Assembly (NCBI RefSeq): GCF_006345805.1
Contig: NC_043002.1
Span: 72,540,001 to 72,604,000 of the forward strand
Origin: Octopus sinensis
Taxonomy: Eukaryota
Reading direction: 5' to 3'
Length of the DNA: 64,000 nt
The notes under the pieces were generated by a model. That model had not been told where the DNA came from. It ran no database searches and saw only the letters and a list, made by a program, of their open reading frames with translations. The stretch's first letter is position 1, and every line of letters begins with the position of its first letter. Of the stretch, positions 2,716 through 31,983 are shown in pieces. The position numbers were made by a program, and so were the translations under genes.

Positions 2716-2858
2716 CTGCAAGTAGCATGAAAATAAAGATTTGCATTATTAGGTGATTCAACAGACATTTATTAAAAAATTTACAAGACATCAATTAAGC
2801 ATGCAACATTTTTAATCTATTTTATTAAATATTTTAACTCTCCTTCCACATGTATATA

Positions 2859-3048
2859 CAGGGTGGCCCAAAAGTAGGTTTACAGTTATCAAGTAGGCAC
2901 TTTAAATTTCCTTTAAAACATTTTATTACATTTAAATTTCTATCTTGCAAGTAACTAAATTAGCATGCAATAATGGTTTCTAAACTGTTAATATATGAAT
3001 GCAAAAGAGATAGATGAATAACTGTAAACCTACTTTTGGGCCACTCTG
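2859..3048. mobile_element. Tc1/mariner-type MITE
   Basis: TIRs cagggtggcccaaaagtaggtttacagttat and ataactgtaaacctacttttgggccactctg; TA on the left flank. Confidence 0.8.
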
Positions 3049-4250
3049 TGTGTATATATATATATATATATATCACTTTGATCACTTTGACCGACCAGTC
3101 CGTCAGGCGTCCATTTGACACCACTGGTCACAGCACGCTGTCCACTCCTCTATATATACACACTCACACATACATACATATACACACATATGTGTATATA
3201 TTTATAATAAGTTATATATAAAAACAATTTAACATTAAACTGAAGGGTTATGCAACACTTTTAGTAGAGTCCATATTAATACAGCACTCAGTTCAGGAAT
3301 TGAAACTGCAATCTTGCAATCAAAAGTGCAACACCCCAGCCACTAGGCCATGTGCCTTCACATATATAAATGTACCTTAAACATAATTCCCAAGACAAAT
3401 CCACATAACAGAGTACATAAATATTCGATACAAGATAGTTTTCAATGTGCTTTTATCTATACAATATTTTCATTCCCAGTCTATCTCATTCATTGTTTAC
3501 AATGTTCTCTCTCTCACACACACACACACACTCCAGGTTTGATTTCTAGAATCTACTGGCTCGATTTTTTCATGGTCAACTTTGTTGGTTGCTCCAGGGT
3601 AGGTAGTTTGCAAGACTTGGTCTATGATACAAACCAGAAAACAAGGAATGTAATTTACCTAGAAGCTCTTACATAATTTCCTTCAACATATGTGGTAGAA
3701 TTTTGTACTTTCCTTTATTATTATTATTATTATTTATATTATGAATTCAGAATTGATTTCTCAATTAAAGAATAAATTGTATCCCAATTGAAGAATAAAT
3801 TGAATTTAGAATAACAAATTTCTATACAACATATTTTGCTTTTTTCTTCCAATATGTAAGGAAAAATTTCATTCCCAGACAATGCCAGGACCCTCTGCTA
3901 GTATATATCTATATGTGTCTGTGTATGTGTGTATGTATGTATGTATGTGTGTGTAATTACTCAATCACTCAGGTTCATAATAACCTAAGTAAATAAATTA
4001 CACAGTTTCTACTGAGTTGATCACATGATAATTGTTGTCATAGAAACCATCCAGATATTCAACATGTACAACTGTTAATCCAGACATGCTTTTTTTCTTC
4101 CTCTCATCTACCTTCTCTCCTCATTCCTTTCTGTCAAACAGCAGAGGATTGAAACATGAAAGACTCTTCCATTTTTCTTGAGTGTCAAACTAATACACAT
4201 AGTTTGTTGATCCCTCACCTGTCTCTGTCTTTTGCTTAATTTTGAACCAT

Positions 4251-4348
4251 AGCTCGTAGTGTCGTCTGCCTAGTATCTGTGACCGAAGAGGAGATAACTA
4301 CTTCGAAATGCTAGCATCTCACAGTCTAAGTAGATGGCGCTGTGAGCT
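4251..4348 (+). ncRNA. Type I hammerhead ribozyme motif (U4C core variant) with extended stem I
   Basis: ctgtga-CCGAAGA-ggag(ataacta)cttc-GAAA-tgctagca-TC-tcacag, flanked by a 23-bp helix (4251-4273 with 4326-4348). Confidence 0.75.
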
Positions 4349-6874
4349 GATCTAGGTGTATACACACCATTTGTCAGCAAAACATAGTGACAAAACATAG
4401 TAAATAGCTTGTTCCCAAGTTCAAACGTCCTTCAAGCATATTTGAACTGATAATAACATTACAATTTCACTTGTCACTGCTTAGTGTTCTGCCTTTGTAA
4501 TATACAGGAGTGGCTGTGTGGTAAGTAACTTGCTTACCAACCACATGGCTCCAAGTTCAGTCCCACTGCATGGCACCTTGGGCAAGTGTCTTCTACTATA
4601 GCCTCGGACTGACCAAAGCCTTGTGAGTGGATTTGGTAGACAGAAACTGAAAGAAGACTGTCACGCATGCGTGTGTGTCCCCAACATCGCTTGACAACCG
4701 ATGGTGTGTTTGCTTCCCCATAACTTAGCGGTTCAGCAAAAGAGGCCGATAGAATAAGTACTAGGCTTACATAGAATAAGTCCTGGGGGTCGATTTGCTC
4801 CACTAAAGGCAGTGCTCCAGCATGGCCACAGTCAAATGACTGAAACATTAGAAGTGTGAAAGAGTATATCCTCATTCACTAAATATTAAATCTGCAACAT
4901 CCTTGTTATGTCTCATTGGATTCTAAAAGCAACTAAAAGATCTCAAATTTACAGGGCAGATGTACCTGTACTCAACTGGTACTACAGTTGATAAAGAGGA
5001 AGGCTGACTTTGGTGTGATTCGAACTCAAAACAGAAGCAAACCCAACTAAATGCTGGCAGCAATTTATAAATTTGCTAATAATATTCATTAAAATATCAC
5101 ATTGAAATGAAAAGCAATTTCCGGAAAGCTTAACTAAATCTTACATAAGTAAAAGAAAAAAAAATCACAAAAACCAAATCAATTTGGTGTAAACATCATT
5201 TATAAAGGTCAGTGTCATTGGTGTCATGTATAAACACATGTGGTTTTCTGCAGTGCTGACCTTTATACAAGATGTTTACACCAAATAAACTTGGTGTAAA
5301 CATCATCTACGATAAAGGTCACAACTGGTGTTAAGATAAACACATTAAGTTTTCTTCAAAACAATAATTAATAGCAGACAGGGATTTTAAAGACAAAGAC
5401 CTCAGCCAAAACTTAATGTAATATGAATGGGAATATGCAGTAGTGTTTATTTATTTAACCAGAACAGCATGAACAAAAGGTATTAAATGAGTGGACAAAA
5501 GGACAAAATGCCTCCATGTGGTCACTCAAAGTCCTAGAAATAGTAGCCAAATCCTCAAATCATACCCTGTTGTCTTCCACCCTTAAGTATTCACATTATT
5601 CTGCTAAATGTAATGCTTATTTATTCACAGTCACCATCATCATCATCGTTTAACATCCGTTTTCCATGCTAGCATGGGTTGGACGGTTCAACCGGGGTCT
5701 GGAAAGCCAGGAGGCTGCACCAGTCTCCAGTCTGGTCTGGTAGTGTTTCTACAGTTGGATGCCCTTCCTAACACCAACCACTCCATGAGTGTAGTGGATG
5801 CTTTTTACGTGCCAGGGAAGGCTGGCAATGGCCACAATTGGTTGGTGCTTTTTACGTGCCAACAGCACAGAAGCCAGTGAAGGCAGTGCTGGCATCAGCC
5901 ATGTTTGGATGGTGCTTTTTACATACCACCGGCACGGGTATCACAACTACAATTTCCATTTGATTATCCACAGTGTCTTGAATTAATCATACATCATCTC
6001 ATAGCTTTGAAATTTTGATGATATGATTGTAGACATTTAAAATGACACTGTAGGGTAGATGTGAGAGGTCAGATCTAGCTGGTTTACATTCTAAAGGGTT
6101 AAGAAAGGAAGGACACACTGCAGTTGTAGAAAAATGGAATGGCCCCAGTAGTTGAAATGCTTTTCATTTTATATACTAGCTCAGTCAAGGATAAAACAGT
6201 TTCAGAAAGCCAAATAAGCAACTTGCTTTCAGTTTATAATTGTAGCTGCTACATTTAGATTGCTAATATTTTTTAAGAAAAACAAGACAGTGAGCTGGCA
6301 GAAACGTAAGCATGCCAGGCGAAATGCATAGCAGTATTTCGTCTGTCTTTACGTTCTGAGTTCAAGTTCCGCCAAAGTCAACTTTGCCTTTCATCCTTTC
6401 GGCATCGATAAATTAAGTACCAGTTGTATACTGGGGTTGATCTAATCAACTGGGCCCCCTCCCCAAAAATTTCAGGCCTTGTGCCTAGAGTAGAAAAGAA
6501 TATTTTTAAGAAAGACATCAATGTCACACAATGACATTTCATCTTGTCTGTAAATATGGAGACCAATGACAATAAGAAATCAATATTTTATGTACCTATA
6601 ATGTTAGATGTGTGTGTGTGTATCTAAAAAAAAGTAAAGTTACCTTTTCGAGTCATACTGACTCATAAAGGGCTGGTTTCCTTTCAGTTTCCGTGGCATA
6701 TAAATTCCCCACCAGGCAGGGATGCCGAACCGTTGCAGGATTACTCATTTTTGCCAGCTGAGTGGACTGGAGTCATGTGAAATGAAGAATACAACGCAAA
6801 ACCCAATCCAAAAATCGAAACCACAATCTTACGAGCATGAGTCCAACACCCTAACCACTAAACCACATGCCTCC

Positions 6875-6905
<31 letters not shown>

Positions 6906-7280
6906 ATGGATGTATGTATATATATATATATATATATAGGTTTAAGAGACAGAATCACCCTCAAGCATCATTGAACGACATTATCCATGATAGATACATG
7001 CTCTTTACTCTTTTACTGGTTTCAGTCATTTGACTGTCTCTTACCACACAGGAGTTAATTAGTCATCTTCATTAGCTTACAACTGTTTCAACCATAAGAA
7101 GCAGTGCACTGAGAGCTGAGTGCTTGTGCAACATCCTATTACTTCCTCAGAGCCATCAAAAAGTGTAAGCATACTGAGTTCTAACATCGTTTAAATAACA
7201 GAAGAATATAAACAAAAACAAGTGCACATAAAAATTAAGCAATAACAGAATAAAAGAACTAATATGTTCATAATACTTAC

Positions 7281-19790: not shown

Positions 19791-20264
19791 CACTGCACTC
19801 TGGGTGTTGGTATTAGGAAGGGCATCCAGCTGTAGAAACATTGCCTGATCTGATTGGACCCTGGTGCAGCTGCTGGTTCTCATGCCAGCAGGGAAAATGG
19901 ATGTTAAACAATGAAAATGATGATGATGATGACACATACACACAAACACTTACTCAAATCACTGCATAGTCACTTGGCTTAATAGAATTAGCAGCTAAAT
20001 CTCCCTCAGCTTGCACCATACAATTTTAAAAAGGAAAGAATGAATTAGATGGTGAAGTCCCAGATCAGTGGTTCTCAACCAAGGTCACATGATCCTTGGG
20101 GCTCCATATATGGTTTTCTGGAACGTAAGATTTGCATTTTATAATTATGTATTTTTACCTGCAAATCAACTTGATATTCTTTATTGTTTTACCTCACAAA
20201 TTATACATGATAACCAAGCTTTATATTTCATATTTACTTCTTTTTTATTTTTCACATGGGACAG

Positions 20265-20700
20265 ATCCATCAATTACTTCTCGACATTGTGCAGAAACCT
20301 TCCCTCATCTTTGACAAATGGAACAAACTTACTCCCTACCACATCGGCTGCTGTAAATCCAAGCCATGAAACTATTTTATCACAGAATGACCAAAATCCT
20401 GCTGTTCTCCAGCAATCAGTGCGATGTAAGAAAATTATCAATTATAAACCAAATGTATGGAAACGCATACACATGAATAGTCTTCATAAACGCATACTAA
20501 CAAAAGGAGGCATTGAAACTATATGGAAACGACTCTTAAAAGGACGCCATGTCCTTGTACCTTATGATGGTTTTCTCTTTGATAAGACTAAGAAAACAAA
20601 ACATTCACTAACTCAACCAAAGATTTACAGAGAGAACAGATTCATTAAAAAAGAGTTTGTAAAAAAGAAATCATTCTTAGATAGGCCATCAACCTATTAA
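20265..20700 (+). CDS. MRPL34: Mitochondrial ribosomal protein L34 (bL34m), exon 2
   Basis: Pyrimidine tract plus acag acceptor. QQSVRCKKIINYKPNVWKRIHMNSLHKRILTKGGIETIWKRLLKGRHVL fits the L34 pattern YxP..KR.....R..T.GG......R..KGR..L. Joined CDS is 163 aa. Confidence 0.85.
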
Positions 20701-27262: not shown

Positions 27263-30200
27263 TTAGGAAGATGGATACGTTAGGAGTTCAGAACTTACCC
27301 GAAAAACTTGCACAAACCTTGCTGGCCATCGAACTGTCTCCTGATCCTGATTTGGTGTGTCGGGGTTGTGCAGCATCTGTGGTGTTCGCTGGAGTTGCCG
27401 AGTCTGTTTGAGGAAAAGAGGGGACTGAATGTAAGTCCTCCTCGATGAAAGCTTTTTTAAACGATCAATCGAGACCGTATTTCGTTTACCTCCATTATCG
27501 AGGACGAAATACTTGGGTTCTCTTTTGATGACCTTGTAGGGCCCGGAATATGGTGGTCGAAGTTGAGAGGGTATCCCATCATTCCTCACGAAGACATGAG
27601 TCCATGTGTTGATATCTTTTGGGACACGTGAAACGACGTTCTGTTGTCTGGGGCCTGAGGGTGATACTTGCGACATGGATGTTCGTAATCGGTGCACATA
27701 TTGTTGTGGGTCAGGGAAGTTTTGTGAAACAGGTTCGATCATCTGCCCAGGTAAGGTGAGTGTTGTGCCATAAACGAGTTCGGCCGGAGTATATCCCAGT
27801 TCTTCCTTAATCGTGGATCGAATTCCAAGGAGGATGAGAGGGAGATGTTCCAACCAGTGAGAACTGTCTGGAGCTGCTTTTATAGATGCCTTGAGTTGGC
27901 GGTGAAAGCGTTCCACCATGCCATTTGCTGCAGGGTGGTAAGCTGTAGTGCGGGTGTGTTTACACCCGAGGAGACGAGTCAGCTCGGTGAAAAGGTGGGA
28001 ATCGAACTGACGTCCTCTGTCGGTGGTAATTGTTGCGGGTGTTCCAAAACGCGAAACCCATTGTGATATCAGCGTTTTAGCGACCGTTTCTGCTGATATA
28101 TCAGATAGGGGCCAGGCTTCGGACCATCGCGAGAACCTATCTACGCAAGTTAGCAAATATGAATAGTTCTGCGAAGGTGGCAGGGGTCCAACGATATCAA
28201 TGTGAACGTGCTGAAATCGTGCATCGGGCTGCGAAAATGAACCGATTGGTGATTTTATGTGCCGGTGGATTTTCGCTTTTTGGCACGCAACACAGCACTT
28301 GGTCCATTCTCTGATATCCTTGTTGATACTGGTCCACACAAAACGGGTCGATATTAGCTTTTGAGTGGAGCGAATACCAGGATGTGACAGAGAATGTAGA
28401 GCGGAGAAAACTTCTCGACGATATTTCTGTGGTACATAAGGGCGTTGGTAACCAGTGGAAATATCACACCAAATATGGGCTGTGGATGATGGTAGTGGAA
28501 CATGCTGAAATTTCAGAGATGACGAATTCCGGAGCTTTAGAAGTTCTTCGTCATTCTCCTGGTCAGCTGCTATACGTGCCAGATCAATAGTAGACGTGGT
28601 GTGGATAGCATTGATCTGCGCACGTGAAAGTGCATCGGCTGCCACGTTGGTCGTCCCTTTGATGTAGCGTATATCCGTCGTGTACTGCGATATGAAATCG
28701 AGGTGGCGTATTTCTCTTGGCGAATGGCGATCCGGTTTGGTGTTAAATGCGTATACTAATGGCTTGTGGTCGGTATATATGGCAAAATTGGTACCTTCTA
28801 GCATATGACGGAAATGCTTAACGGCCAGGTATGCCGCCAATAATTCCCGACTGAATGTGCTGTATTTGGTTTCGCGGGTTTTAACCGCTTAGAAAAGAAA
28901 GACAACGGTTGCCATATACCGTCAACAAGCTGTTGTAGCACACCTCCGATTCCGGAATCGGATGCATCAACGAGTAAACATCGTGGGGCGTCTGGTTTTG
29001 GATAAACCAACATGGTAGCGCTAGATAACGCTTTTTTCAGGGCAGCAAAAGAAACGAGTTGATCTTCGGTCAGAGCTATATCTGCGTTTTTGCAGGTTCG
29101 CTGACGTAGCAAATCCGTGAGCGGTTGCGCTATTTCAGCGAGGTGGGGCACGAACCGTCGATAGAAATTCGCTAGACCGAGATATTCCCTTAATTTGCGG
29201 AGAGATGTGGGTGGTGGAAAATCCACGATGGCCTTGACTTTCTCGGGAAGGGGACGAATTCCATTTTTATCGACTATATGGCCGAGAAAATGAAGGGAAG
29301 CAACTCCGAACAAACATTTGGTAGGGTTGATAACAATTCCAAATTGACGTAGTCGTCCGAATAGCAGGTGAAGGTGTTGATTATGCTCTTCGTCCGAGTT
29401 ACTGGCCACGAGTATGTCGTCTATGTAGGCATAGACGAAAGGCAAACCTCTAGTCACCATGTCGATAAACCTTTGGAATGTCTGTGCCGCGTTTCGTAAA
29501 CCGAAAGGCATACGGGAATTCAAACATTCCGAAAGGTGTAGTCACTGCTGTCTTTGAGATGTCTGCAGGTTCGACTGGGATTTGGTTGTATGCTCGCACC
29601 AGGTCGATTTTTGAAAAGATGCGAGCTCCATGCAGCGAGCTGAAAAGTCCTGGAGAAAAGGCACCGGATAGGCATCACTGATAGTGCTTTTATTCAGTGA
29701 TCGATAATCGCCGCAAACCCGCCAATCGGTCGATGATTTTTTGGGACGCAGTGTATCGGCGAGGACCAGTTGCTGCTGGAAACGCGGATGATTCCGAGGT
29801 CGAGCATGTGCTGGAATTCCCGCTTGACGGCCTGGAGACGATCAGGTGGTAACCTTCTGGGCCTTGCAGCAACAGGTGGACCGCTGGTTTTGATGTGGTG
29901 GGTAACGTCGTGCTTTATCGGCTGGTTATGAAAAACTGGCCGGGCGACATCTGGATAATCATTCAGGATGGAACTGTGACGAGTCGTTGTCGTAAGCATT
30001 ACAGTTGGGCTGACTGTGTCCATTCGAGCGGCTATACCGCGCACAGTAAGCTTGGTGGTGGTGTCGACAAGTCGTCTGTTCTTTATGTCTACCAGGAGAC
30101 CGAAATGATGCAGGAAATCGGCTCCTAAGATAGGGGTCGGCAGTTTAGCGACGACGAATACCCACTGAAATGTGCGGCGTAGTCCTATGTTTAATGTTAG

Positions 30201-30430
30201 GGACTGTTCACCGTAGGTTGGAATGGGTGAATGGTTGACTGCCTGAAGACAGACTGATGTCTCTTTTCTTTTTCCAGAAGTGTTGGAGGAGATGGGATGA
30301 TGCTGACTTCCGCACCTGTGTCAACCAGGAAACGCGTGCCTGTTACACGATCGCAAACGAAAAACAGGCGACTGTGTGGGTGCGAACCAGGAACTTCCGT
30401 CGCGTTCAATTCCTGGCTGTGCCGTTTCCC
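27263..30430 (-). pseudogene. pol: Pol (protease, RT, RNase H, integrase), broken by about 6 frameshifts in this sequence
   Basis: FLVDTGAEVS (PR), [14 protein letters not shown] and YIDD (RT), DASD (RH), HHCC zinc finger, HIDIVGPLP and TDRGRQF (IN), GPY motif, spread over several reading frames. Confidence 0.93.
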
Positions 30431-31326
30431 GAACTGGGTGAGGAAAACGAGCACGGTACCGTACATTTTTGTGCCCGTGTTCCGAATGTTCGGTGGTACC
30501 AACACGTGTCATGTGAGTTTCGGGTAGCACTGGGGCTTCGAGACCGTCTGCCATCTCGTCGAGATCGGCTGGTGCTTCGACGCTGGGGACTAAACTTTAG
30601 GGCTTGTATTTGGGCTGTGAGAATTTGTATTTGCGCAGCTTGCTGCGTCATTAATGCACGCAAATCCGAAATCTCTGAAGAACTGGTTTGTGCACGGAAA
30701 GGATTGGTACTGGGAGCGGCTGGCGTCACCGTCGATACCGTTGGATATCTGTGCGGTACTTCGGCTATTTTGTCAGCTAGCTCCGCCAGTTCTTCAAGGG
30801 ATGTGTTTTCTCTGGTGGACGCGAGAACAACCTGGGTATTGGAGGGCAGACGCTGGAGAAAAAGTTGCTTGAAGATTTTTTCTGGGAGCGTCTCATCTCC
30901 GAGAAGCTGTTTCATTCTCCGAAGAAGCTGGGACGGCGTTTTGTCACCCAATTCTTCCGATATCAGAAGCTGGTGAAGTCTTTTTTGTTGGGATTCTGAG
31001 GTTCTGTTTATTAACGTGGTTTTAAAAACTTCATATGAAACAGAACCGGGTGGTGCCATGATAAGGTCGCGTATCACGTTCGTTATTTCTGGTGACAGAG
31101 AACTGATAACGTGAGAAAGTCGAGCCGCATCGCTCGATATTCTGTGAGAGGCAAACTGTGCCTCTATATGGTGAAACCACAATGTCGGGTCGTGGGTCCA
31201 GAATGGTGGAATTTTTAACGAGATCGCCGCTTGGAATGCCATGTCGATGTTGGCCGCTGGGTTTTGTTCGGGAGATTCATTGTTTTCGTCGGAATTTTCG
31301 GTTGCTTCGTTGCTGGTGATGTGCAA
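30406..31326 (-). CDS. gag: Gag of the Gypsy element
   Basis: LKIPPFWTHDPTLWFHHIEAQF, LGDKTPSQLLRRMKQL and CWYHRTFGTRAQKCTVPC (CHCC zinc motif). Confidence 0.93.
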   Translation of the reverse strand: MHITSNEATENSDENNESPEQNPAANIDMAFQAAISLKIPPFWTHDPTLWFHHIEAQFASHRISSDAARLSHVISSLSPEITNVIRDLIMAPPGSVSYEVFKTTLINRTSESQQKRLHQLLISEELGDKTPSQLLRRMKQLLGDETLPEKIFKQLFLQRLPSNTQVVLASTRENTSLEELAELADKIAEVPHRYPTVSTVTPAAPSTNPFRAQTSSSEISDLRALMTQQAAQIQILTAQIQALKFSPQRRSTSRSRRDGRRSRSPSATRNSHDTCWYHRTFGTRAQKCTVPCSFSSPSSGNGTARN

Positions 31327-31398
31327 ACTGTAATTCTTCGACGCGGTTGATGAAGCTGGTTCCAGGGAAGGCGCGATTCGTTTTACGGGGTCACCAAA

Positions 31399-31983
31399 TG
31401 TAGTGGATGCGTGGATGTATTAATAAATACATAAGTGCTTTGTAATAAATTAAAGATTTATTATCACTACATCAATTTGTAAGCAATGTTACACATCGCT
31501 TGTACAAAATGCATATTAAATAGTGGTTGCAAATAATACATATTAAAGGAATGCATAATACAGGATACACATTAAAGCAGAATATGTTTGATGGTGTGTG
31601 TGTGTGCGTGTGTGTAAATCATGCATGACAGAGTCACCTTTCTGATTATTCTTTCGTCGTCCTCATAAATGCGTGGCGTTCTCTTAAACGTTGGTTCGGG
31701 TTCTCTCTAGATACCTATTTCTCCGTTCTATTTATAACATCTCAAATAGCCAGAAAAATAGATATACCGCAAGAGTGTTATTGCGTACAGTAGGTCGCTG
31801 GTCGTCCTGTTAAACTTCGCCTGACCTGCTCGGGTCAGAGGTCGAAGGGAGACGATCCATCATTTTTTGTCAGAACAAAGAGATTCTGATTTCGCGCCTT
31901 TTTGTGCATTGGTATTTTACGACCAATGATTCTTGGGTCTGATTTCGAATCCAAGCTTTGAGAAGGAAGTGCTAATTCTTACA
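31399..31983 (-). repeat. 5' LTR of the Gypsy element
   Basis: TGTAAG...ACTACA, containing TATAAATAG and AATAAA on the minus strand. Followed by PBS TGGTGACCCCG (31386-31396), complementary to the tRNA-Trp 3' end. Confidence 0.97.

What the first reader, a model, noticed from the sequence alone, without database searches (positions are those of the whole stretch)
4251..4348. Well-formed hammerhead ribozyme with a long G-U-rich stem I, antisense within an SSR2 intron
Seen: complete type I layout. Stem I is ctgtga/tcacag, the core is CCGAAGA...GAAA (C instead of U at position 4), stem II is ggag/cttc, stem III is the palindrome ATGCTAGCAT, and the cleavage triplet is AUC. Beyond a small internal loop, stem I continues for 23 more pairs: 16 Watson-Crick, 6 G-U and 1 mismatch. 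Six of the seven deviations still pair only on the plus-strand RNA, which suggests RNA-level structure rather than a decaying DNA palindrome. Known: palindromic stem III is typical of HHRs in Penelope-like elements and animal retrozymes, and a stem I internal loop can dock with loop II. Inference: a possibly active ribozyme from a cephalopod retrozyme or Penelope family that may be uncatalogued.
Basis: partly seen in the sequence, partly recalled or inferred. Interest (0 to 1): 0.75.

Follow-up and report, generated by a model that had tools for sequence, protein, structure and literature searches.

The report
Fossil hammerhead retrozyme with variant core
This hammerhead-shaped RNA motif is real, but it is the front end of one old, truncated copy of a scattered 342-base non-coding jumping repeat (a retrozyme, a kind already known in animals) that Penelope-type retrotransposon enzymes likely pasted into this intron, and this copy is probably inactive, although cutting has not been tested.

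Summary
The type I hammerhead at 4251-4348 is as described, and it lies antisense in a spliced SSR2 intron. It is not a stand-alone host ribozyme. It is the 5' part of a 255-bp solo copy (4251-4505) of a dispersed, non-coding ~342-bp repeat (about 600 search candidates) found as partial tandems and head-to-head pairs: a non-LTR retrozyme. Copy ends carry the Penelope signature: two fixed 3' end points about 38 nt apart, one of each in 14 of 16 classifiable head-to-head insertions, and AT-rich 8-12-bp target duplications. The U4-to-C core change and the G-U-rich stem are family traits. The stem III palindrome covaries (GCTAGC/GTTAAC) at a pair that fits a dimer. The family is old (9% non-CpG divergence, no young burst seen). 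This copy has its own lesions and is predicted to misfold. No partner Penelope element was identified; cleavage and circles are untested. The scan has already noted several such retrozyme families with Penelope-type ends in this and other genomes. Verdict: new member of a known kind, with a mildly unusual family-wide U4C core.

The parts
4251..4505 (+). 5'-truncated solo copy of the ~342-bp retrozyme unit (unit positions 1-264, two small deletions)
   Evidence: BLAST to family unit, 80% to L012 unit and 86% to family majority; only family copy in the window
4251..4348 (+). Type I hammerhead motif with long stem I
4251..4273 (+). 5' arm of outer stem I (pairs with 4326-4348; 16 WC, 6 G-U, 1 mismatch)
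   Evidence: sequence; fold
4274..4282 (+). Internal loop strand (UAU here; UGU in 52 of 64 copies) and 5' strand of core-proximal stem I
4283..4289 (+). Catalytic core box CCGAAGA (U4C variant; C in 52 of 64 copies)
4290..4304 (+). Stem II (4 bp) and 7-nt loop; G-U at 4291/4303 is a minority change (C in 57 of 64 copies)
4305..4318 (+). GAAA box, palindromic stem III (4308-4317) and predicted cut after C4318
4319..4348 (+). 3' strands of stem I
4467..4505 (+). Penelope-type 'tail' segment between the family's two preferred 3' end points (unit ~225 and ~262); this copy ends at the outer one
   Evidence: start coordinate derived from the alignment, approximate
2716..7280 (-). SSR2 (TRAP-beta) intron that hosts the copy, GT-AG, 4,565 bp
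4506..4847 (+). Very abundant SINE-like repeat abutting the 3' end of the copy (not part of the retrozyme)
   Evidence: contig depth far above the neighbours and loose ends at 4847; 'SINE' label is recalled, not tested

Best explanation
The motif is the hammerhead of an old, 5'-truncated copy of a ~342-nt non-coding retrozyme that was likely copied into the SSR2 intron by a Penelope-like element's enzyme and is now probably inactive. Shown: a dispersed family of non-coding units with one type I hammerhead each, in partial tandems and head-to-head pairs, with two fixed 3' ends and AT-rich target duplications. Inferred life cycle: tandem source copies were transcribed; two hammerheads paired through the palindromic stem III and cut weakly (U4C core) to release units that were likely ligated into circles; a Penelope RT/GIY-YIG protein nicked AT-rich DNA and started reverse transcription at two fixed internal sites about 157 and 194 nt downstream of the cut site, often from both DNA ends, running through the cut site and past one unit. 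This copy is one arm started at the outer site and broken off at the 5' base of stem I. Being antisense, it puts no hammerhead in the SSR2 pre-mRNA.
For: Family: 642 and 578 first-look candidates, 40 scored each. Unit 342 nt, 46.8% GC; longest ATG frame in a dimer 38 aa. Majority unit folds as a circle at z -8.9 on the plus strand against -2.9 on the minus (100 shuffles each). 3' ends: 46 of 92 fragments end in unit 221-228 or 258-268, 5' ends are scattered. Of 27 head-to-head insertions, 16 had both ends classifiable: 14 short+tailed, 2 short+short, 0 tailed+tailed (P 0.002). This matches the 30-40-bp tail on one end and the inverted 5'-truncated copy described for Penelope elements (10.1101/2021.04.23.441226) and the two RT start sites shown in vitro (PMC11167929). 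Flank duplications of 8-12 AT-rich bases in 6 of 17 insertions against 1.1% of 272 mismatched flank pairs. 66 of 87 arms cross the cut site, 24 exceed one unit, 0 start at it. Opposite arms share subtype alleles at 81% (222 of 273) against 62% between loci. Stem III positions 61/64 are the top covarying pair, C-G 34 and T-A 20 of 63. Intact RT + GIY-YIG frames of 775-781 aa exist in the genome. Age: 9.3% non-CpG and 26% CpG divergence; 5 and 4 exact matches to two 34-nt core patterns genome-wide; 7 of 64 copies keep a complete motif and no tandem pair has two.
Against: No partner element found: a family profile had no hit better than E 0.79 in 50 Penelope loci, a small sample of 5,029 candidates. 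No array over about 2.3 units was seen, so the source array is unidentified. Arms longer than one unit fit an uncut multimer as well as a circle. The sample is the top 40 hits of each of two queries plus pattern hits, so it favours copies that contain the hammerhead; this inflates the crossing count and could hide a diverged young subfamily. Three loci (L012, L019, L059) have arm pairs with mixed subtype alleles. The stem III covariation may be a single inherited event. C3 is changed in 10 of 59 copies. Inactivity of this copy rests on a folding model that ignores tertiary contacts; it is among the 7 of 64 complete motifs.
Confidence: 0.8

Rival explanations
1. The repeat is the pseudo-LTR of an autonomous Penelope-like element, and the copies are its 5'-truncated ends.
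For: Same tail, inversion and target-duplication signature; Penelope pLTRs carry type I hammerheads with palindromic stem III (PMC4209133).
Against: Arms longer than one unit continue into the same unit (24 of 87), not into a reading frame; tblastn with 4 frames from this genome (three GIY-YIG-bearing Penelope frames and one neighbouring frame) found nothing in 51 family loci of about 3 kb or in the window; the unit has no frame over 38 aa; stems I (6 bp) and II (4 bp) have the canonical, not the minimal, geometry.
Confidence: 0.08
2. This particular copy is a working ribozyme, kept or co-opted, that cuts an antisense transcript of the SSR2 locus.
For: All core boxes and stems are intact, which holds for only 7 of 64 copies; two molecules could pair through stem III (duplex -13.6 kcal/mol); a U4C hammerhead supports viroid infectivity (PMC3088659).
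Against: The motif is not significantly better kept than the rest of the copy (6 of 86 against 17 of 144 non-CpG changes, P 0.27); it carries G4329A, C4303T, C4343T and a loop G-to-A change; predicted misfolding pairs the core with stem II; it is a solo copy; 8 of 9 predicted Xenopus retrozyme dimers did not cleave in vitro (10.64898/2026.07.22.740005).
Confidence: 0.07
3. The family spread without cleavage: U4C disabled the ribozyme, and uncut multimer transcripts served as Penelope templates, the fold acting only as a binding or structural element.
For: Hammerhead catalysis is not needed for Penelope insertion in vitro (PMC11167929); U4C considerably lowers activity in vitro; no arm starts at the cut site.
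Against: The five core adenines are changed in 5 of 298 copy-sites against 15.9 expected from context-matched sites (P 0.0015, post hoc), and the palindrome was kept through a double change; both suggest constraint on catalysis while the family multiplied.
Confidence: 0.15
4. A decaying DNA palindrome or MITE with a chance hammerhead-like loop.
For: No Rfam match; part of the apparent covariation in the outer stem is CpG decay on both arms (pair 6/93).
Against: G-U is the commonest or joint commonest pair at several outer-stem positions across 52 copies; strand asymmetry of folding; the hairpin is internal to a 342-bp tandem unit, not terminal; 0 descriptor hits in control sequence.
Confidence: 0.01

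Closest known systems
Metazoan non-LTR retrozymes (Cervera and de la Pena 2020, PMC7229834; read parts 2-4 of 6 of the main text; supplement unreadable), especially Mytilus 350-390-bp and axolotl 330/350-bp units
   Same: Non-coding unit of 342 bp, one canonical-geometry type I hammerhead per unit, GC under 50%, strongly self-paired predicted circle, target duplications longer than 4 bp, Penelope elements in the same genome.
   Different: Family-wide U4C core; only short decayed tandems (up to about 2.3 units) seen; no circles or cleavage shown; Penelope-type end points documented here, whereas the parts read propose Penelope mobilisation from co-occurrence.
Vertebrate non-LTR retrozymes as non-autonomous Penelope derivatives (Li, Clavereau, Pollet 2026, 10.64898/2026.07.22.740005; read parts 1-3 of 5)
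   Same: Dispersed solo and dimer derivatives, intronic copies common, Penelope link.
   Different: Their link rests on homology to pLTRs and co-distribution; no homologous pLTR was found here. No mollusc is among the groups they list. No sampled locus meets their 'active' rule of two consecutive complete hammerheads.
Penelope/Poseidon element PAc of Anolis (Frangieh et al. 2024, PMC11167929; read parts 1-2 of 4)
   Same: Two internal RT start points downstream of the hammerhead that define a tail; AT-rich targets; both target strands extended.
   Different: PAc is autonomous, with the reading frame starting inside the hammerhead; this unit encodes nothing.
Natural U4C hammerhead of a viroid (as cited in Perreault et al. 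2011, PMC3088659; read passages and section 8)
   Same: C at core position 4 with the rest of the core intact.
   Different: A viroid sequence variant there; here the majority and inferred ancestral state of an animal repeat family.

Membership tests
Type I hammerhead ribozyme | Core boxes CUGANGA and GAAA, NUH triplet, three stems, ends in stem I | tested here: met
   Met except U4C, a known tolerated natural variant; 90.4% of cells paired in 52 copies
Type I hammerhead ribozyme | Match to an Rfam hammerhead model | tested here: not met
   No match at gathering score or at E up to 10
Type I hammerhead ribozyme | Loop 1-loop 2 tertiary contact | tested here: inconclusive
   Internal loop UGU/U after 6 bp in the family majority, and the same loop in an unrelated young family (L099); this copy has UAU; contact not modelled
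Type I hammerhead ribozyme | Self-cleavage after C17 | not testable with these tools
   Needs in vitro assay or raw stranded reads; only contigs were available
Metazoan non-LTR retrozyme | Tandem units of 150-450 bp with one type I hammerhead each | tested here: met
   342-344-bp unit; 6 of 87 arms cross the cut site twice
Metazoan non-LTR retrozyme | No protein coding; GC under 50% | tested here: met
   Longest ATG frame 38 aa; GC 46.8%
Metazoan non-LTR retrozyme | Target duplications longer than 4 bp when present | tested here: met
   8-12 bp in 6 of 17 head-to-head insertions against 1.1% in control; none evident at the window copy
Metazoan non-LTR retrozyme | Strongly self-paired predicted circle | tested here: met
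   Circular fold z -8.9, 68% paired, plus strand; prediction only
Metazoan non-LTR retrozyme | Expressed as circular and linear monomer RNA | tested here: inconclusive
   Contigs cannot show ends or circles; one low-depth contig crosses a unit boundary, which a tandem copy also explains
Metazoan non-LTR retrozyme | Absence of PBS and PPT | not tested
   No tRNA-complement search was run
Metazoan non-LTR retrozyme ('active' by Li et al. 2026) | Two consecutive units with complete hammerheads | tested here: not met
   The 7 complete motifs among 64 include no same-strand neighbours; sample limited to top hits
Autonomous Penelope-like element (pLTR) | Repeat flanks an RT + GIY-YIG reading frame | tested here: not met
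   No tblastn hit in 51 family loci or the window; no family match in 50 Penelope loci
Penelope-mobilised insertion | 30-40-bp tail on one end, inverted 5'-truncated arm, AT-rich target | tested here: met

The most novel reading that the evidence does not exclude
An animal retrozyme family multiplied to hundreds of copies with a fixed, attenuated U4C hammerhead that cuts only as a stem-III-swapped dimer, kept under selection through at least two subtypes, and its insertions record a Penelope enzyme copying one RNA circle from two fixed start sites at both ends of a DNA break. It would be a natural case of a ribozyme tuned down to protect its own circular template.
Probability: 0.3. Interest if true: 0.55.

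Novelty: new member of a known kind. Interest (0 to 1): 0.28.

Why it matters
For SSR2 it probably does not matter: the host pre-mRNA carries the reverse complement. For retrozyme biology, the family adds genomic footprint evidence (two fixed ends, one tail per insertion, target duplications) for Penelope mobilisation, which the papers read here propose from co-occurrence and homology. The scan has noted that footprint in other families, some of them young and better suited to experiments. The distinctive point here is the family-wide U4C core with a covarying palindrome, a cheap test of how much catalysis a retrozyme needs.

Tried and rejected
Rfam: no hammerhead model matched. Sequencing runs: no RNA holder listed for the L012 query; this is no evidence on expression. 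Contigs of four RNA-type runs laid on one unit gave 3, 1, 4 and 2 contigs at depth 2.6-6.7, none at 95% identity or more; contigs cannot show level, strand, ends or circles, and library type is not on record, so this is not used for or against. Partner search: 20 Penelope stretches of 8 kb and 30 of 3 kb gave no similarity to the family; the hammerhead beside the Penelope frame in L099 proved to be a separate young repeat family, not its pLTR, with no similarity to this family. Idea that the two arms of an insertion come from two different RNAs: seen in 3 loci but rejected as the rule. Idea that arm junctions fall on the two arms of stem I: only 2-3 of 27 by eye, dropped. Reversion of C4 to the canonical U in 10 of 64 copies is explained by CpG decay, since G5-to-A occurs in 23 of 64, not by selection. 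The scan's index had no look-alike by sequence and nothing near this window. A 2017 paper on Penelope-associated hammerhead dimers that I recalled was not held.

Full report
Observation. The 98-mer folds far better than shuffles on the plus strand (z -4.8) and not on the minus strand (z -1.1). My hand count of the outer stem gives 16 Watson-Crick pairs, 6 G-U and 1 mismatch. TRAP-beta exons flank it on the minus strand, and contigs of 2 of 3 RNA-type runs splice 7281 to 2715, so it is antisense in an SSR2 intron. Rfam does not recognise it.

It is a repeat copy. A search of the genome with 4200-4400 gave 642 candidates, 40 scored, the best other copies 84-94% identical. One locus holds the motif twice 344 bp apart, and that unit retrieved 578 candidates, 40 scored. 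A majority unit built in a script from 92 fragments in 49 distinct loci is 342 nt, 46.8% GC, with no ATG frame over 38 aa. The window holds one copy, 4251-4505, unit positions 1-264. Its 3' end abuts a very abundant repeat, and no target duplication is evident.

The hammerhead across copies. In 64 extracted copies (two are near-duplicates; some lack the 5' arm), position 4 is C in 52 and T in 10, and G5 is A in 23. That pattern is CpG decay of an ancestral CCG, so U4C is a family trait (inference). On 52 copies (12 dropped for a truncated or replaced 5' arm, or as a near-duplicate) 90.4% of cells pair, and G-U is the commonest or joint commonest pair at positions 7, 10, 12, 14, 18 and 20. Most variation is on one side, G-U to G-C or A-U. 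Some two-sided changes are CpG decay on both arms and are not evidence of selection. The strongest covariation is in stem III: GCTAGC against GTTAAC, C-G 34 and T-A 20 of 63. That pair would close a 2-nt loop in a monomer but sits inside a 10-bp duplex in a dimer (-13.6 kcal/mol), the dimer mode described for metazoan hammerheads (PMC4209133, parts 1-2 read). It may be one inherited event. Core adenines vary less than context-matched sites (5 of 298 against 15.9 expected, after dropping 9 loci tied to the window or to exact-core patterns; post hoc), but C3 is changed in 10 of 59. U4C is a known natural variant that lowers activity in vitro yet permits viroid infectivity (PMC3088659, passages and section 8).

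How it moved. 3' ends pile up at two sites: 46 of 92 fragments end in unit 221-228 or 258-268, while 5' ends scatter. Of 27 head-to-head insertions in 51 loci, 16 had both ends in one of two classes (205-235, 240-270): 14 had one short and one tailed end, 2 two short ends, none two tailed ends; 11 had one end elsewhere (P 0.002). With hand-set boundaries, 6 of 17 show 8-12-bp AT-rich flank duplications against 1.1% of 272 mismatched pairs. A tail on one end and an inverted 5'-truncated arm are the Penelope pattern (10.1101/2021.04.23.441226, passages), and the tail corresponds to two internal RT start sites in vitro (PMC11167929, parts 1-2). 66 of 87 arms cross the cut site, 24 exceed one unit, and none starts within 5 nt of it. 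The template was therefore a circle or an uncut multimer (inference; the sample favours hammerhead-bearing arms). Opposite arms share subtype alleles as often as tandem units do (81% and 79%, against 62% between loci), with three loci mixed. The genome encodes intact RT + GIY-YIG frames (the RVT_1 scores fall just under Pfam's cut-off). None of 50 sampled Penelope loci resembles this unit, and none of 51 family loci holds Penelope coding sequence.

Is it alive. Copies over 150 bp differ from the majority by 5.5-15.3% at non-CpG sites (9.3% over all fragments) and 26% at CpG sites; the window copy by 10.5% and 27%. Two 34-nt core patterns match exactly only 5 and 4 times in 2.7 Gb, controls 0. 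Seven of 64 copies keep a complete motif, this one among them, and no two are tandem neighbours. This copy differs from the majority at 7 of 98 positions, and its hammerhead-compatible ensemble lies 5.1 kcal/mol above the total against 2.5 for the majority. The motif is not significantly better kept than the rest of the copy (P 0.27). It is probably a fossil that kept its core by chance. Expression could not be judged (see Tried and rejected).

Comparison. It works like, and meets the genomic criteria of, a metazoan non-LTR retrozyme (PMC7229834, parts 2-4; 10.64898/2026.07.22.740005, parts 1-3). Cleavage and circles are untested. Six full-text searches (listings only unless stated) showed no paper on this family or on octopus retrozymes, and one paper with the term U4C. 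The giant squid genome paper reports 235 Rfam hammerhead matches (PMC6962438, passages), so cephalopod hammerheads are in print. The unreadable supplement of PMC7229834, the closed bioRxiv supplements, Repbase and Dfam may list it. The scan's notes describe several retrozyme families with Penelope-type ends in this and other genomes, three of them old families of 332-359 bp in this genome; I could not tell whether any is this family.

Verdict. Real motif, real family, known kind, probably dead copy. The family-wide U4C core and the covarying palindrome are the points worth a bench test. Interest 0.28.

Noticed in passing
L099:6452-6772 (G000 C8, about 18,821,950-18,822,270) and L120-L139: A separate, young hammerhead repeat family (2,248 candidates, best copies 92-98% identical) inserted in TA microsatellite, canonical CUGAUGA core in the L099 copy, long stem I with the same UGU/U internal loop, partial tandems about 350 bp apart and two preferred 3' ends 46 nt apart. 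No sequence similarity to the family studied. A better candidate for an active retrozyme.
   Followed up: partly
L108:5530-5630, minus strand: Another hammerhead-like motif with a U4C core (CCGACGA), 3-bp stem II with GGAA loop and a near-perfect long stem I, in a fold-back repeat downstream of a Penelope frame. Probably the family in scan note e1-9541343.
   Followed up: no
L097:5163, L115:5069 and L115:6006: Hammerhead motifs with the U3-A8 covariant core (TTGATAA) downstream of Penelope frames.
   Followed up: no
L096-L103: Intact 775-883-codon frames with RT and C-terminal GIY-YIG, several near-identical copies, some preceded by an overlapping upstream frame of 280-479 codons; a young Penelope family with a two-frame layout.
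   Followed up: partly
window 27263-31419, minus strand: Gypsy-type LTR retrotransposon with gag, protease, RT and integrase-like frames broken by frameshifts (labels by eye, not tested).
   Followed up: no
window 20056-20700, plus strand: 214-codon stop-to-stop frame whose middle resembles a mitochondrial ribosomal protein L34-like motif (recalled, by eye).
   Followed up: no
family loci L001-L065: CpG decay varies from about 4% to 50% between copies of similar non-CpG divergence, suggesting that copies sit in differently methylated regions.
   Followed up: no
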